Source: a virus
Lineage: Duplodnaviria; Caudoviricetes
IMG/VR virus record: IMGVR_UViG_3300028048_003164
Location: 32,001-96,000 of that record
Strand: one strand, 5' to 3'
Length of the DNA: 64,000 nucleotides
The notes beneath the pieces were generated by a model. It saw only the letters and a list, made by a program, of their open reading frames with translations, did not search any database and was not told the DNA's origin. Shown here one piece after another: positions 3,997-7,646 of the stretch. Each line of letters opens with the position of its first letter. The first letter of the stretch is position 1. Made by a program: the position numbers and the translations under genes.

Positions 3997-4388
3997 AAAA
4001 GGGGAAAATATACGAGTTTGACCCTATTCTCTATCCTCGTCTGTTGTGGATAGTCAAAGGTTCGGGGGATTTCGTCAGGGAACACTTTCGCAAGAAGGGA
4101 GGTGACGAACTGACGGAAGACGACGTGGATATGCGCTATGTCGATTCGTGGGTATGCAAGTGCGAGCGGAAATCCGACAACAGGCTCGGTATCGTTTTCT
4201 TTTTTGACACAGGGTTAGAGGCTAAACAGCTTGTTCACGAATGCTATCACGCCCTTACGGCATTTGTCAGCGAGATTAACGCCGACCTCCCAGACTATGA
4301 CAGTGACGGGATGGAGGAGTTTGCGGCATACTTGATAGAGTGGATTTTCGATTGCTGTTGGAAGGTAAAGCAAGGTAAGGTGAAATGA
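3993..4388 (+). CDS. Small HExxH metallopeptidase-like protein (paralogue of the previous gene)
   Basis: HECYH followed by EFAAYLIEWI. Confidence 0.6.
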   Translation: MKKGKIYEFDPILYPRLLWIVKGSGDFVREHFRKKGGDELTEDDVDMRYVDSWVCKCERKSDNRLGIVFFFDTGLEAKQLVHECYHALTAFVSEINADLPDYDSDGMEEFAAYLIEWIFDCCWKVKQGKVK

Positions 4389-6766
4389 CAGACACGGACA
4401 TTTTGAGGGCTTGGACGCTGAAGAGTTCCCTTAACTTCACAAGGTACTTCTTCAAGCAGAACAACGACATGAAGTTCATCATAGGCAGGCACCACAAGCT
4501 TATCTGTGATGCCCTTGATGATGTCCTTAACGGAAAATGCAACAAACTTATTATTAATTTGTCGCCGAGATATGGAAAAACGGAACTTGCAGTAAAGAAC
4601 TTCATTGCTATGGGGTTAGCCGTCAATCCTTCTGCCAAATTCATCCACCTCTCTTATTCTGCCAACCTTGCACAAGACAACTCTATTGCCGTAAAAAATA
4701 TAGTTCAAAACGAAGAATATCAACGGCTCTATCCTACCCGTATCACCTACGGAAAGAATATGAAATCTCAGTGGGAAACCGACCAAGGAGGTGGCTTGTA
4801 CGCCACATCTACGCTCGGTCAGATTACTGGTTTCGGTGCAGGTCTTGTCGAAAGGGAAGGTGAACCGTATCGTTTTGGTGGCGCAATCATTATCGATGAC
4901 CCTATCAAGCCGGAGGATGCCCTTTCCGATGTTGTCCGTGAGCGTGTGAACCGACGTTTTGAAACAACAATCAGAAACCGCGTCAATTCCCGTAACACAC
5001 CCATTATCATTATCATGCAGCGTTTGCATGAGCATGACCTCTGCGGCTATTTGCAGGAAATAGAACCCGACGAGTGGCGGGTGATATCACTGCCAGTTAT
5101 ACAGATAAACGAGAACGGAGAGCGTGAAGCACTGTGGCCATACAAGCATACGTTGGAGGAACTTGATAAAATAAATGCAGCGAACTCCTTTGTTTTTGAG
5201 ACGCAATATCAGCAGAACCCAACGCCGATGGAAGGTCTGATGTACGAACACCCGTTCAAGACATATTCAAAACTTCCGCCCGTAAAGCTTGGAACGATGT
5301 GTAACTGCACGGACTCTGCGGACACAGGTGCCGACTATCTCTGCTCAATCACCTATCTATCAATGAAGGATGGTTACTATGTTACAGATGTAATATTCAC
5401 GAAGAAAAGCATGGAACATACCGAGCCGTGGATGGCGCAGATGCTGGCTAAATGGGATGTTCGATACTGCGTCATTGAATCCAACAATGGTGGCAGGGCA
5501 TTTGCCAGGAACGTGGAGAGACTATCCCGTGAGTATGGCAATGGAAAGACTACGTTCATAACATTCACGCAAACGAAAAACAAACAGGTTCGCATCTTCA
5601 CAAGAAGCCAAGAAGTGAACAATCTGCTTATCTTCCCCGAGGATTGGGAGCGCAGGTGGCCAGAGTTTGCCCATATGATGAAATCGTACAGAAGAGAAGG
5701 ACATAATGCGCATGATGATGCTTGTTTTACGGCAGGAACTCCCGTGGCAACTATATGGGGAAATAAGCCTATTGAAAAGTTAAAGGTAGGCGATTATGTT
5801 TTAACCCCATTCGGAGTAAAGAGAGTCCTTGCATGTGGAAAGACGGGACATAAGCCTACGGTTTCGCGTTTTGGTTTGCAAGTGACTGAAAACCATAGAT
5901 TTTTTAGCTTAAATAGCTTTAAGCCAGTGATGGAATGTGAAGAAAATTCGTTATCTTTGCTTGGAATAAAAGAGCAATTGTTATGGAGATTCAGGAAACT
6001 ATTACTTTCAACGGAGTCGAATACCGTCTTGTGGGGTCGGGAAGGTATTATCTCAGCCAGTCAAAGACTAACGAGGGACGAAAAGGCGCAAAAAGCCTTC
6101 ATGTCGCAATTTGGGAGTTTTATAACCAACAAGAAGTTCCTAAAGGCTATTGCATTCATCATAAAGACCATAATACTTTTAATAACGACATCAGTAACTT
6201 GGAGTGTTTACCGATTAAGCAACACTTGTCGGAGCATAGCAAGAAGAATTGGCAATACGCTGAATATCGGAAAAAAATGGCAGATACCCAACAGAAACGT
6301 TGTGAGGCCGCATCAGAGTGGCACAGAAGCAAAGAAGGAAGGGAATGGCATAGAAAACACGCACATTGCGAGCGAAAACTGCGAGTCAGCATTTGTAGGT
6401 TCTGCGGAAAAGGTTTCCTGTCAAACAAAATCGACGCATGGTTTTGCAGCGAAAAATGCGGTGAGAACTACCGAAGAAACTATGAACTCAAATATACGGC
6501 TGTCTGTCAAGAGTGCGGCAAGGTATTTCAGTACGGAAAAGGATCAGCTGGACAACCAGATAGAAAGTTCTGTAGCCGTTCTTGTCACATCGCGAACAAC
6601 AACAGAAAACGCAAGAGACGTGTATAATATCACGGTAGAGGATGTCGGTTGTTATTATGCCAATGGAATTCTTGTGTCGAATTGTGATTGTGCTACTATG
6701 GTCATTGAAAGGGGAAGCCTTATCAGCGGCGCAAGCGATGAACAGATACTTTCGGATTTCTTATAG
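4385..6766 (+). CDS. terL: Terminase large subunit with intein
   Basis: Walker A LSPRYGKT, Walker B IIIDDP, MQRLHEHDL, YQQNP, nuclease motifs DSADTGADY, IESNNGG and HDDA|CD. Confidence 0.95.
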   Translation: MTDTDILRAWTLKSSLNFTRYFFKQNNDMKFIIGRHHKLICDALDDVLNGKCNKLIINLSPRYGKTELAVKNFIAMGLAVNPSAKFIHLSYSANLAQDNSIAVKNIVQNEEYQRLYPTRITYGKNMKSQWETDQGGGLYATSTLGQITGFGAGLVEREGEPYRFGGAIIIDDPIKPEDALSDVVRERVNRRFETTIRNRVNSRNTPIIIIMQRLHEHDLCGYLQEIEPDEWRVISLPVIQINENGEREALWPYKHTLEELDKINAANSFVFETQYQQNPTPMEGLMYEHPFKTYSKLPPVKLGTMCNCTDSADTGADYLCSITYLSMKDGYYVTDVIFTKKSMEHTEPWMAQMLAKWDVRYCVIESNNGGRAFARNVERLSREYGNGKTTFITFTQTKNKQVRIFTRSQEVNNLLIFPEDWERRWPEFAHMMKSYRREGHNAHDDACFTAGTPVATIWGNKPIEKLKVGDYVLTPFGVKRVLACGKTGHKPTVSRFGLQVTENHRFFSLNSFKPVMECEENSLSLLGIKEQLLWRFRKLLLSTESNTVLWGREGIISASQRLTRDEKAQKAFMSQFGSFITNKKFLKAIAFIIKTIILLITTSVTWSVYRLSNTCRSIARRIGNTLNIGKKWQIPNRNVVRPHQSGTEAKKEGNGIENTHIASENCESAFVGSAEKVSCQTKSTHGFAAKNAVRTTEETMNSNIRLSVKSAARYFSTEKDQLDNQIESSVAVLVTSRTTTENARDVYNITVEDVGCYYANGILVSNCDCATMVIERGSLISGASDEQILSDFL
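5952..5959 (+). promoter_or_regulatory. Candidate internal Bacteroidetes -7 promoter box for the nested HNH gene
   Basis: TATCTTTG matches TAnnTTTG and ends 23 nt before ATG 5983. No clear -33 box. Confidence 0.55.
5983..6627 (+). CDS. HNH homing endonuclease with C-terminal zinc-finger repeats, nested in the intein in another frame
   Basis: LHVAIWE...IHHKDHNTFNNDISNLECL...H (HNH_3-type) plus two CxxCGKxF...FCSxxC repeats. Frame offset 2 relative to terL. Confidence 0.9.
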   Translation: MEIQETITFNGVEYRLVGSGRYYLSQSKTNEGRKGAKSLHVAIWEFYNQQEVPKGYCIHHKDHNTFNNDISNLECLPIKQHLSEHSKKNWQYAEYRKKMADTQQKRCEAASEWHRSKEGREWHRKHAHCERKLRVSICRFCGKGFLSNKIDAWFCSEKCGENYRRNYELKYTAVCQECGKVFQYGKGSAGQPDRKFCSRSCHIANNNRKRKRRV

Positions 6767-6829
6767 GAATGACGAGGAATGATAAGATACTTTAGCATAT
6801 TTTTCTGCCGTTTTTTCGTACTTTATTCG

Positions 6830-6837
6830 TATCTTTG
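6830..6837 (+). promoter_or_regulatory. -7 promoter box for the luxS-containing operon
   Basis: TATCTTTG 17 nt upstream of ATG 6855. Confidence 0.6.
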
Positions 6838-6854
6838 TCGAAAAAAGAGAAAAT

Positions 6855-7115
6855 ATGGGATTTCATAGAGTATCAGCAACGAGAAACATGCGCACACCTC
6901 ATGCGCACCTCGATAGGAAGGATAATGGGGATATATATGCCGTTTACAAGTTGGGCTTCACCAAGAATGCATCACGCTTTGAGTATTGTTTCATAGGAGG
7001 GGAGTCAGGAACGTTGACTTTTGACGGGAATGTAATAGAGGCGCATCCGAAGTTCAAGAATATCGATGCATTTGAGGGATGGTGCAGAAAGTATTTAGCA
7101 GAACATGATTTATAA
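6855..7115 (+). CDS. Hypothetical protein
   Basis: First ORF after the promoter, with an A-rich leader. Confidence 0.6.
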   Translation: MGFHRVSATRNMRTPHAHLDRKDNGDIYAVYKLGFTKNASRFEYCFIGGESGTLTFDGNVIEAHPKFKNIDAFEGWCRKYLAEHDL

Positions 7116-7118
7116 GAT

Positions 7119-7313
7119 ATGAGAGTATTTTTTCAAGACCCAGACACGGAATATGTGATTTTCCATACGGAGGACAGTCCCGTAATACCGAACGTTGGAG
7201 AGGAAGTTCGGTTGGAAATGAATTGGTATAAAGTCGTGGAACGCACGTTCTATTACAAGCATCTAACCAATATGGATGATAATAGCTGCACTGTCTGGGT
7301 TAAACCTTTATAA
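7119..7313 (+). CDS. Hypothetical protein
   Basis: Operonic spacing. Confidence 0.55.
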   Translation: MRVFFQDPDTEYVIFHTEDSPVIPNVGEEVRLEMNWYKVVERTFYYKHLTNMDDNSCTVWVKPL

Positions 7314-7322
7314 TAATAAGCA

Positions 7323-7646
7323 ATGGCTACAGATGAATTAAAACAAGAATTGACTTCCCTAAACAAAAATGACCTTCTTTATTTGATAGAGGGTCTTATG
7401 GAAGATGGTGTGATAGACATCACGGATATTACACTATGTCACACAAGGGCACTTGAAAGCAAACTTGCTGCAAAGGACAAGGTTATCTTTGAGGCAGATA
7501 AGTGTATCTTTGAAAGCGTATTTACCGATTCTATAGGCAAACCTGCTGATAATGCAGCCCTGATGCGTAAGTTGGAATGGATGGAAAAGACGGGAATGCA
7601 TAATATGGACGGAATAATGGAATATCTAAAATCAACAAACAAATAA
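7323..7646 (+). CDS. Hypothetical protein
   Basis: TAATG overlap with luxS. Confidence 0.6.
   Translation: MATDELKQELTSLNKNDLLYLIEGLMEDGVIDITDITLCHTRALESKLAAKDKVIFEADKCIFESVFTDSIGKPADNAALMRKLEWMEKTGMHNMDGIMEYLKSTNK

What the first reader, a model, noticed from the sequence alone, without database searches (positions are those of the whole stretch)
5723..6682. Dual-coding terminase intein: HNH endonuclease overprinted in another frame with its own promoter
Seen: the intein frame stays open for 320 codons, but its middle has no recognisable domain. The same 645 nt, in the frame offset by 2, encode a clear HNH plus zinc-finger protein (5983-6627). A TAnnTTTG box (5952-5959) lies 23 nt before its ATG. 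Its TAA comes from the TAT-AAT codons of the intein block F (VYN). Established: canonical inteins carry the endonuclease in frame. I recall out-of-frame architectures being reported for some actinobacteriophage inteins, so the concept may not be wholly new; a Bacteroidetes-phage case with an internal promoter would extend it. Inference: a free-standing HNH gene colonised a mini-intein and uses it as a neutral shelter in the terminase active-site motif, with expression uncoupled from terL.
Basis: partly seen in the sequence, partly recalled or inferred. Interest (0 to 1): 0.86.

Follow-up and report, generated by a model that had tools for sequence, protein, structure and literature searches.

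The report
Terminase intein hiding an out-of-frame HNH gene
A self-splicing protein insert (intein) in this phage's DNA-packaging gene carries a complete, separately read HNH homing-endonuclease gene in a second reading frame, and the same two-frame design turns up in phages of several bacterial phyla.

Summary
terL (4385-6766) holds a 320-codon intein (5723-6682). A 214-codon HNH_3 ORF (5983-6627) lies inside it, 2 bases out of frame.

The design is widespread. It occurs in 6 GenBank phage records with Clostridium, Tetrasphaera, Acinetobacter and Rhodobacteraceae hosts. It also occurs in 80 of 80 IMG/VR loci examined (63 distinct clusters), always with the same frame offset.

In the overlap, selection acts on the HNH frame:
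- HNH frame: dN/dS 0.09-0.33.
- Intein frame: dN/dS 0.72-1.84, yet it has no stop codons.

Free-standing relatives of the HNH carry 4-14 stops in that frame. The intein's splicing residues and the HNH catalytic and zinc-binding residues are conserved. The HNH frame folds confidently (pLDDT 94; nearest structure I-HmuI). The middle of the intein frame does not.

A start codon sits at the aligned position. A Shine-Dalgarno motif precedes it in 26 of 59 lineages (5% in controls), so the HNH is probably translated on its own.

Splicing, cleavage and homing are inferred.

Inteins with out-of-frame endonucleases were described in a 2025 actinophage preprint, but with another nuclease type. I rate this a new, much broader variant of a known kind.

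The parts
4385..5722 (+). terL N-extein (ATPase and most of the nuclease domain), ending ...HNAHDDA
   Evidence: ORF. PHROG terminase large subunit families, E down to 7e-127. Intein-less alleles of 473-476 aa are up to 92% identical.
5723..6682 (+). Intein, 320 codons, in the terL frame. Cys1 is at 5723-5725, block B T-E-N-H at 5885-5896, terminal Asn at 6680-6682.
   Evidence: Pfam Hint_2, PT-HINT and Intein_splicing match at the two ends. C1, H58 and N320 are invariant and T55 nearly so in 49 relatives. In the AF2 model residues 1-90 and about 295-320 have pLDDT 95-98. The top Foldseek hits are inteins (gp41-1, probability 1.00, TM 0.50 by target length).
5983..6627 (+). Nested HNH endonuclease ORF, 214 aa, 2 bases out of frame with terL. 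The stop TAA is at 6625-6627, inside intein block F.
   Evidence: Pfam HNH_3, 43.9 bits. PHROG HNH endonuclease, 3.6e-25. AF2 mean pLDDT 94.4. I-HmuI is the only PDB sequence hit (E 1.5e-4) and the best structural match (Z 7.7, rmsd 2.9, 79 residues).
6157..6225 (+). HNH catalytic core in the HNH frame: H59 H60 ... N72 ... H81
   Evidence: H60 and H81 are invariant; H59, D62, N67, N68 and N72 are at least 90% conserved in 49 embedded copies.
6394..6585 (+). Two CxxC...CxxxC zinc ribbons of the HNH protein: C138/141/155/159 and C175/178/197/201
   Evidence: C138, C141 and C155 are invariant and C159 at least 90% conserved. The C-terminal ribbon resembles YacG (Z 3.9).
5983..6619 (+). 'Shadow' part of the intein frame: kept free of stops but without a recognisable domain. 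It includes a hydrophobic predicted helix at about 6140-6283.
   Evidence: Intein residues 98-134 and 204-283 have pLDDT under 50; the helix 140-187 has pLDDT 76-90. In the overlap the intein frame has dN/dS 0.72-1.84 and varies most at its codon position 2.
5952..5959 (+). TATCTTTG, a match to the Bacteroidetes-type -7 box TAnnTTTG, 23 nt before the HNH ATG. Candidate internal promoter element, unproven.
   Evidence: The same 8-mer stands 17 nt before the next gene, at 6830. It is conserved in the nearest relative L013 and has one mismatch in L014.
5969..5974 (+). AAAGAG, 8 nt before the ATG. It aligns with the AAGGAG Shine-Dalgarno of the Clostridium phage copy.
   Evidence: A 5-nt SD-like motif occurs in 26 of 59 lineages against 5.4% in controls.
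6683..6766 (+). terL C-extein, starting with the +1 Cys (CDCATMV...), plus the stop codon
   Evidence: The intein-less allele reads HDDGPDCATMV where the spliced product would read HDDACDCATMV. An intein-less contig joins 5688 to 6686.

Best explanation
This is a mobile intein inserted at the catalytic Asp/His motif of the terminase nuclease domain. The place where a canonical intein holds its in-frame endonuclease domain is filled by a complete HNH homing-endonuclease gene read in another frame.

Two proteins come from the same 645 nt. Ribosomes translating terL read through it as a stop-free, largely unstructured linker between the N- and C-terminal halves of the splicing (HINT) domain. The intein then splices out and restores TerL. 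Other ribosomes start at the internal ATG (5983) and make a 214-aa I-HmuI-like HNH nuclease with two zinc ribbons.

That nuclease most likely nicks or cuts intein-less terL alleles of co-infecting relatives. Repair then copies the intein and the nested gene into them (homing).

Shown here:
- the architecture and its conservation in many lineages;
- which frame is under selection in the overlap;
- conserved splicing and catalytic residues;
- conserved internal start signals;
- close intein-less alleles.

Inferred, not shown: splicing, nuclease activity and target, homing, and which mRNA the HNH is translated from.
For: Architecture repeated:
- The HNH homologue lies 2 bases out of frame inside terL in phiCDHM19, TJE1, Highwayman, LS06-2018-MD07 and MT838676, and in the broken terL of phiCD119.
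- In all 80 IMG/VR loci kept out of 241 relatives, an HNH-profile hit lies in that same frame. The intein frame has 0 stops and the third frame 5-36.
- These make 63 clusters at 97% nt identity out of 84 sequences.

Selection:
- Nucleotide diversity by intein-frame codon position is 0.48/0.42/0.69 in the N-splicing part and 0.36/0.30/0.65 in the C part. In the overlap it is 0.47/0.63/0.52, which read in the HNH frame is 0.50/0.47/0.64.
- In 10 pairs, dN/dS in the overlap is 0.09-0.33 for the HNH frame and 0.72-1.84 for the intein frame. In the N-splicing part it is 0.06-0.24 in the 9 pairs where dS could be computed.

Conserved residues.

Folds: HNH frame pLDDT 94.4. The intein frame folds only at its two ends. 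The hits are inteins and I-HmuI.

Separate initiation:
- 59 of 63 lineages have a start codon within -14 to +8 codons of the aligned start.
- 26 of those 59 have an SD-like motif, against 344 of 6363 control triplets (p 8e-18).

Mobility:
- Intein-less terL alleles are up to 92% identical.
- One contig bridges the insertion site without the intein.
- The exteins belong to very different terL families but share the same motif site.
- One terL carries two such inteins at two sites.
Against: - No experiment or expression data exists for this window. The RNA contigs laid covered only 6865-7400.
- The window's intein has Ser, not His, before the terminal Asn. Of 84 family members, 37 share SNC and 39 have HNC.
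- The shadow peptide holds a hydrophobic helix that might hinder folding.
- The 80 loci were chosen by a match in the intein frame, so their open intein frame is partly a selection effect. The HNH frame was not selected for.
- NG86 dN/dS is biased in overlapping frames; only its direction is safe.
- In 3 of 63 lineages (L020, L032, L042) the HNH frame has one premature stop, so the nested gene is not always kept.
- Foldseek's match to I-HmuI is weak (E 0.21).
Confidence: 0.8

Rival explanations
1. One reading: the nested HNH gene has its own internal promoter (TAnnTTTG box at 5952-5959). It is transcribed independently of terL, not merely translated from the terL mRNA. This adds to the best explanation rather than replacing it.
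For: - The box stands 23 nt before the ATG.
- The identical 8-mer precedes the next gene by 17 nt, and 30 of 60 boxes lie in the 16% of the window that is intergenic.
- The box is kept in the nearest relative, L013.
- At the homologous place the Clostridium phage copy has a perfect TATAAT 21 nt before its GTG.
- Hexamers matching TATAAT in 5 of 6 positions or better occur upstream of 18 of 59 starts, against 10% in controls. Perfect matches occur in 5 of 59 against 1%.
Against: - The other 30 of 60 boxes lie in coding sequence at roughly chance density, so one within 30 nt of a given ATG has a chance of about 0.01, and it was noticed after the fact.
- I see no TTTG about 20 nt upstream.
- L014 has a mismatch at the last G.
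- The -10-like enrichment is confounded: the same bases encode conserved intein residues (Asp-Ile-Leu/Ile, Leu-Ser-Leu).
- The sigma-70 scan finds nothing before 5983.
- There are no RNA data.
Confidence: 0.35
2. The HNH is not a selfish homing nuclease. It is a domesticated helper of the terminase, like the HNH proteins that cos-type phages need for packaging, and it is stored inside terL.
For: Free-standing relatives always lie next to terminase or portal genes (8 of 8 annotated records). In BP10 the gene sits directly upstream of terS, which is the usual place of packaging HNH genes (recalled from Kala et al. 2014, not read here).
Against: - The distribution is sporadic: terL alleles up to 92% identical lack the whole element.
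- Three lineages carry nonsense mutations in the HNH while terL stays open.
- The domain is HNH_3 with I-HmuI as nearest solved relative, which is a homing-type nuclease.
- The family crosses unrelated terL families.
Confidence: 0.07
3. In this window the HNH ORF is a silent relic. Only the intein frame is expressed, and the second frame is open by inheritance.
For: The gene caller behind the protein database did not call it: one search lists no 100% match. Some lineages do carry a broken HNH frame.
Against: - The ORF is intact, with ATG, all conserved catalytic and zinc residues, and a confident fold.
- Window against L013: dN/dS is 0.10 in the HNH frame at dS about 2.
Confidence: 0.04
4. The HNH domain is made by a programmed -1 ribosomal frameshift from the terL/intein frame, giving an N-extein-intein-HNH fusion rather than a separate protein.
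For: The HNH frame is the -1 frame of terL. It is open for 14 codons before the ATG.
Against: - In 45 of 63 lineages the open stretch before the aligned start is 0-11 codons; in 58 of 63 it is 26 or fewer.
- A start codon is conserved at the aligned position, with SD motifs.
- I see no X XXY YYZ slippery heptamer in 5941-5982 (by eye).
Confidence: 0.03
5. Assembly or sequencing error: compensating indels hide an ordinary in-frame HNH intein.
For: None found.
Against: The same frame relation holds in 85 independently assembled sequences, isolate phage genomes among them.
Confidence: 0.01

Closest known systems
Non-canonical actinobacteriophage inteins with the homing endonuclease in a separate frame (Gosselin, Arsenault & Gogarten, bioRxiv 10.1101/2025.01.02.630785; abstract, sections 8 and 15 and passages read)
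   Same: The endonuclease ORF lies between the splicing blocks, on the same strand, in 'frame 3'. The intein frame stays open without a recognisable fold. Some are in terL. The authors propose origin by invasion of an intein by a free-standing endonuclease gene.
   Different: Their out-of-frame nuclease is endonuclease VII-like; their HNH cases are in frame. Here it is HNH_3 / I-HmuI-like with two zinc ribbons. My HNH search of GenBank phages found no actinophage other than Tetrasphaera TJE1. Their survey is limited to PhagesDB. This family spans phages of at least four host phyla, with 241 or more IMG/VR loci. I could not see their supplementary tables.
ShiLan insertion: hidden out-of-frame HNH in a mycobacteriophage DNA methylase (Arsenault et al. 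2025, PMC11855218; abstract, section 4.3 and passages read)
   Same: An HNH gene is read in another frame inside a host gene that stays open. The HNH stop codon lies in the last bases of the insertion. Homing-like distribution.
   Different: ShiLan has no splicing domains and is not an intein. The authors found no RBS and invoke leaderless initiation. Here the insert is a bona fide intein, and many lineages keep an SD motif.
[quoted passage not shown] 2009, PMC2677866; abstract and passages read)
   Same: A free-standing endonuclease gene, with its own control elements, sits inside an intein coding region. One case is in a terminase. The model is the same for how inteins acquire endonucleases.
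   Different: There the host gene is broken into two ORFs and spliced in trans, and the nucleases are GIY-YIG or Vsr-like. Here the host frame is continuous and the nuclease is HNH.
I-HmuI, intron-encoded HNH nicking homing endonuclease of Bacillus phage SPO1 (PDB 1u3e)
   Same: It is the only PDB sequence hit of the family profile (E 1.5e-4) and the best structural match of the N-terminal 90 residues (Z 7.7).
   Different: 16% identity. I-HmuI sits in a group I intron and has a different C-terminal DNA-binding part; here there are two zinc ribbons. Activity was not tested.
Canonical in-frame HNH_3 intein, such as the cyanophage CL131 dCTP deaminase intein (PMC6293099, passages read)
   Same: Hint plus HNH_3 in one insertion. 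Splicing of that intein was shown experimentally.
   Different: There the HNH_3 is in frame with the intein and the host gene differs.

Membership tests
Intein (HINT splicing domain, class 1 type) | N-terminal Cys/Ser nucleophile and block B TxxH | tested here: met
   Cys1 at 5723 and T-E-N-H at 5885-5896. C1 and H58 are invariant and T55 at least 90% conserved in 49 relatives.
Intein (HINT splicing domain, class 1 type) | C-terminal Asn followed by Cys/Ser/Thr; penultimate His | tested here: inconclusive
   Asn320 and +1 Cys are present, and N320 is invariant. The penultimate residue is Ser in the window. Of 84 family members 37 have SNC and 39 HNC.
Intein (HINT splicing domain, class 1 type) | HINT fold | tested here: met
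   In the AF2 model both ends have pLDDT 95-98. All top Foldseek hits are inteins or Hedgehog-type domains (gp41-1 intein, probability 1.00, E 1.3e-3, TM 0.50 by target). Pfam Hint_2 scores 27.7 bits, just under its cut-off of 28.4.
Intein (HINT splicing domain, class 1 type) | In-frame insertion at a conserved site, with intein-less alleles | tested here: met
   P0010 and others (473-476 aa, up to 92% identical) lack it. A contig joins 5688 to 6686 without it.
Intein (HINT splicing domain, class 1 type) | Protein splicing activity | not testable with these tools
   Inferred from the fact that terL is essential and from the conserved residues.
HNH_3 / I-HmuI-like homing endonuclease | HNH (beta-beta-alpha-metal) motif residues and family profile match | tested here: met
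   Pfam HNH_3, 43.9 bits against a cut-off of 24.8. H60 and H81 are invariant and N72 at least 90% conserved. I-HmuI matches at E 1.5e-4 and Z 7.7.
HNH_3 / I-HmuI-like homing endonuclease | Sporadic, horizontally spread distribution | tested here: met
   Present in unrelated terL families and absent from close alleles.
HNH_3 / I-HmuI-like homing endonuclease | Site-specific cleavage of the element-free allele | not testable with these tools
Out-of-frame-endonuclease inteins (Gosselin et al. 2025) | Endonuclease ORF between the splicing blocks, same strand, other frame; intein frame open | tested here: met
Out-of-frame-endonuclease inteins (Gosselin et al. 2025) | Endonuclease VII-like nuclease | tested here: not met
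   The Pfam scan at E up to 1 lists HNH_3 and no Endonuclease_7 model.
Fractured gene / split intein with free-standing endonuclease gene (Dassa et al. 2009) | Host gene broken into two ORFs | tested here: not met
   terL is one ORF of 793 codons.
Packaging-associated HNH proteins of cos phages | Kept in all members of a phage lineage as a required partner of the terminase | tested here: not met
   Close terL alleles lack it. Three lineages have nonsense mutations. The requirement itself cannot be tested here.

The most novel reading that the evidence does not exclude
The family is an autonomous gene within an intein that spread across phages of several bacterial phyla. Inside the intein coding sequence, the nested HNH gene keeps expression signals suited to its host: a Shine-Dalgarno motif, a -10 box, or in Bacteroidetes-type phages a TAnnTTTG box. 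The intein's middle has become an obligate stop-free 'shadow' linker. [quoted passage not shown]
Probability: 0.4. Interest if true: 0.75.

Novelty: new variant of a known kind. Interest (0 to 1): 0.62.

Why it matters
How inteins acquired their homing endonucleases is an old question. The 'splicing first, endonuclease later' model lacks natural intermediates. This family supplies many of them:
- a bona fide intein whose endonuclease is still a separate gene, always in the same other frame;
- free-standing cousins parked beside the target gene;
- copies with a decaying endonuclease;
- a terL carrying two such inteins.

The family also includes cultured phages (phiCDHM19, TJE1 and the Acinetobacter phage Highwayman). 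Splicing, internal initiation, cleavage and homing can therefore be tested directly.

It matters for annotation too. Gene callers miss the nested gene. Databases hold the shadow frame as a protein family of unknown function (phrog_35162). terL genes of about 800 aa in gut and environmental phages are being read as single-product genes.

Tried and rejected
- RNA evidence. The look-up of sequencing runs gave only small-share holders. Laid on 4385-7400, the two metatranscriptome runs (one sample) had contigs only on 6865-7400. Nothing can be said about terL or HNH transcripts or a transcript start. Contigs cannot show starts in any case.
- Single-protein scans of IMG/VR with the HNH protein and with the intein frame found no relatives. 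Only the alignment query did.
- Foldseek of the HNH model against PDB gave no hit at E 0.001 or better; I-HmuI scored E 0.21. VIA-align and the profile search were clearer.
- The sigma-70 and terminator scan of 5600-6900 found nothing relevant to 5983.
- Comparing Acinetobacter phages BP10 (free-standing HNH) and Highwayman (embedded HNH) as a possible before/after pair: the HNH proteins are 51% identical but the terL proteins only 27%. They are not a close pair.
- Frameshift fusion, silent relic, packaging helper and assembly error are treated under rivals.
- The HNH protein search returned 141 relatives, mostly on short contigs. Without DNA context I could not label them embedded or free, so they were left out of the tree.
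- Left out of counts: L031 (cut by the contig end) and L052 (no block G found by my pattern) from the 63-cluster analyses. The pair L081/L082 (65.6% nt identity) was the one of 11 listed pairs not used. Only the best 80 of 241 IMG/VR relatives were available.
They may list intein types that bear on the novelty claim.
- Claims that something is not in print rest only.
Full report
**What is there.** The window comes from a provirus record of 119,607 bases. Its large terminase gene terL is one open frame, 4385-6766, 793 codons. The whole length matches a terminase PHROG (phrog_30251, E 7e-127, profile positions 43-788 of 799), so that family already contains the insert.

After ...HNAHDDA the protein continues with Cys (TGT, 5723). 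It runs for 320 codons to ...GILVSN (AAT, 6680-6682). It then resumes with Cys-Asp-Cys-Ala-Thr-Met-Val. Only the two ends match Hint and intein models.

Two bases out of frame, an ATG at 5983 opens a 214-codon ORF that ends with TAA at 6625-6627. This ORF matches Pfam HNH_3 above the curated cut-off (43.9 against 24.8 bits) and PHROG HNH endonuclease families (E 3.6e-25). The TAA is built from the TAT-AAT codons of the intein's V-Y-N. A TATCTTTG box lies 23 nt before the ATG.

**More than chance.**
- The HNH ORF has no stop in the terL frame and 18 in the third frame.
- Only 268 of 20,000 synonymous-codon shuffles keep the terL frame open.
- The natural control is stronger. Six free-standing relatives in GenBank phages have 4-14 stops in the corresponding frame. 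Six embedded copies, the window's among them, have none.

**The same design elsewhere.** A tblastn search with the HNH protein against GenBank phages found it under annotated terL genes of:
- Clostridium phage phiCDHM19, and phiCD119, where terL is deposited as three CDSs;
- Tetrasphaera phage TJE1;
- Acinetobacter phage Highwayman;
- Rhodobacteraceae phage LS06-2018-MD07;
- an unannotated human-faecal phage scaffold.

In each, the HNH frame is 2 bases out of frame with terL, and terL reads through. DNA of the phiCDHM19 copy is 71% identical to window 5692-6250.

An alignment of intein-frame sequences from metagenomic terL proteins then pulled 241 relatives out of IMG/VR. The best 80 were kept. 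All 80 have an HNH-profile hit in the same relative frame, no stop in the intein frame, and 5-36 stops in the third frame. The 84 usable sequences form 63 clusters at 97% nucleotide identity.

One caution applies. The 80 loci were ranked by their match in the intein frame, so an open intein frame is partly a selection effect. The HNH frame was not selected for.

**Which frame is under selection.** I took the 63 cluster representatives and measured nucleotide diversity by codon position.

| Region | Frame read | Position 1 | Position 2 | Position 3 |
|---|---|---|---|---|
| N-terminal splicing part | intein | 0.48 | 0.42 | 0.69 |
| C-terminal splicing part | intein | 0.36 | 0.30 | 0.65 |
| Overlap | intein | 0.47 | 0.63 | 0.52 |
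| Overlap | HNH | 0.50 | 0.47 | 0.64 |

The splicing parts show the usual third-position peak. In the overlap the peak moves to intein-frame position 2, which is HNH-frame position 3.

I then ran Nei-Gojobori estimates on 10 of the 11 pairs that are at least 65% identical.

| Region and frame | dN/dS |
|---|---|
| Overlap, HNH frame | 0.09-0.33 |
| Overlap, intein frame | 0.72-1.84 |
| N-splicing part, intein frame | 0.06-0.24 (9 pairs; dS saturated in one) |

For the window against L013 the values are 0.10, 1.53 and 0.16. Such estimates are biased in overlapping genes, but the direction is unambiguous.

**Conserved residues and folds.**
- In 49 embedded HNH proteins, H40, H60, L73, H81, C138, C141 and C155 are invariant. 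H59, D62, N67, N68, N72 and C159 are nearly so. These are the HNH motif and a zinc ribbon.
- In the intein frame, C1, H58 and N320 are invariant and T55 nearly so.
- AlphaFold2 folds the HNH frame with mean pLDDT 94.4.
- The family profile hits only I-HmuI in the PDB (E 1.5e-4). VIA-align gives I-HmuI Z 7.7 (rmsd 2.9, 79 residues), I-PpoI Z 5.8, and YacG Z 3.9 for the last zinc ribbon. Foldseek alone was weak.
- The intein frame folds only at its ends (residues 1-90 and about 295-320, pLDDT 95-98), and these match solved inteins.
- Intein residues 98-134 and 204-283 are below pLDDT 50. A hydrophobic helix at 140-187 is the shadow of the HNH core.

**How the nested gene is probably expressed.**
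- In 59 of 63 lineages a start codon lies within -14 to +8 codons of the position aligned with the window's ATG.
- The HNH frame is open for only 0-11 codons before that position in 45 of 63 lineages, and for 26 or fewer in 58 of 63.
- A 5-nt Shine-Dalgarno-like motif lies 4-17 nt upstream in 26 of 59 lineages. Among all ATG/GTG/TTG triplets in the same terL genes it occurs in 344 of 6363 (p 8e-18).
- Examples: AAAGGAG, 8 nt, GTG in phiCDHM19, and GGAGGG, 7 nt, ATG in LS06.
- The window has AAAGAG at the aligned place, in an A-rich stretch. That fits a Bacteroidetes-type host that makes little use of SD pairing (recalled knowledge).

These points argue for separate initiation and against a frameshift fusion.

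**Whether the gene also has its own promoter is open.** In favour:
- TAnnTTTG boxes are enriched in the intergenic 16% of the window (30 of 60).
- The identical 8-mer precedes the next gene.
- L013 keeps the box.
- phiCDHM19 has TATAAT at the homologous place.
- -10-like hexamers are enriched upstream of the starts (18 of 59 against 10%).

Against: - Thirty boxes lie in coding sequence at about chance density.
- I find no upstream TTTG.
- L014 has a mismatch.
- The enriched bases also encode conserved intein residues.
- The RNA contigs did not cover the region.

**Mobility.**
- The terL family of the window includes alleles of 473-476 aa, up to 92% identical, without the insert. They read HDDGPDCATMV where the spliced product would read HDDACDCATMV.
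- A contig from a sheep-gut run joins 5688 to 6686 with 37 other letters that encode the intein-less version.
- Across the 63 lineages the exteins belong to very different terminase families. The insert always follows the nuclease Asp/His motif and precedes C-D... or C-x-D-A-L-R-Y.
- One terL (L060/L061) has two such inteins at two sites, each with a nested out-of-frame HNH.
- In three lineages the HNH frame has a single premature stop about 20-26 codons in, while terL stays open. That is expected for a decaying homing gene.
- The HNH stop falls inside intein block F or G in nearly all lineages. In 28 of 63 it lies 55 nt before the intein end, at the Y/F-N/D/S junction seen in the window; 20 of these have the window's exact TAA at Y-N.

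**Free-standing relatives.** In 8 of 8 annotated phage records the free-standing homologue lies beside terminase or portal genes. On a quick maximum-likelihood tree of 63 embedded and 9 free copies, the free ones fall in two places: BP10 next to Highwayman (SH-aLRT 96), and eight others with L051 (91). At least two switches are needed. The tree is unrooted, so capture and escape cannot be told apart.

**Comparison with what is known.**
- A 2025 preprint on actinobacteriophage inteins reports endonucleases in a separate frame: antisense LAGLIDADG, antisense Vsr-like, and endonuclease VII-like in 'frame 3'. It proposes invasion of inteins by free-standing endonuclease genes. Its HNH cases are in frame.
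- A 2025 paper describes an out-of-frame HNH in a methylase insertion that is not an intein.
- Dassa et al. [quoted passage not shown]
- An in-frame HNH_3 intein that splices is known in cyanophage CL131.
- My five literature searches found no description of an out-of-frame HNH_3 gene in an intein, nor of an intein in the Clostridium phage terminases. Supplements were closed.

I therefore rate this a new and far more widespread variant of a recently described kind, not a new kind.

**Verdict.** Interest 0.62.

Noticed in passing
L060 317-3334 (also L061): One terL ORF of 1006 codons holds two inteins. One follows ...ALYEQ and one follows ...DRMDA. Each has an HNH-profile ORF 2 bases out of frame (E 4.8e-19 and 2.8e-37).
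   Followed up: partly
Proteins P0002, P0004, P0011 (relatives of window 4385-6766): Close terL alleles (82-95% identical) carry a second intein at the P-loop (PRYGK|C...HN|TE). It is a mini-intein in P0002 and P0011 and LAGLIDADG-bearing in P0004. The window's allele lacks it.
   Followed up: no
L020, L032, L042: The nested HNH frame has one premature stop about 20-26 codons after a normal start while the intein/terL frame stays open. These look like decaying endonuclease genes.
   Followed up: partly
L002 (phiCD119) 201-2595; phrog_35162: The phiCD119 terL is deposited as three CDSs (ter1, ter2, ORF3). ORF3 (232 aa) is the shadow frame plus the C-extein. A PHROG of 'unknown function' with a 232-position profile matches the same part of the window's terL (E 3.3e-18).
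   Followed up: partly
window 6140-6283: The intein frame over the HNH core encodes a conserved hydrophobic stretch, ...FIIKT..LLITT..WSVY..., predicted as a long helix (pLDDT 76-90). I do not know whether this membrane-like segment affects the precursor or the excised intein.
   Followed up: no
window 6830-6837: The 8-mer TATCTTTG, identical to the one before the HNH ORF, lies 17 nt before the ORF that starts at 6855, in the gap after terL. It is a likely real promoter box. RNA contigs of one bovine-gut sample cover 6865-7400 at 100% identity.
   Followed up: partly
Own record G000:C1:6019-6249 (outside the window): A second, weak match to the HNH profile (E 1.4e-4) lies inside an open frame of 307 aa elsewhere in the same provirus record.
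   Followed up: no
Protein P0127 (relative of window 5983-6627): One source names a 58%-identical homologue 'endogenous inhibitor of DNA gyrase (YacG/DUF329)'. The likely reason is the C-terminal zinc ribbon, which does resemble YacG (Z 3.9). It looks like a misleading name.
   Followed up: no
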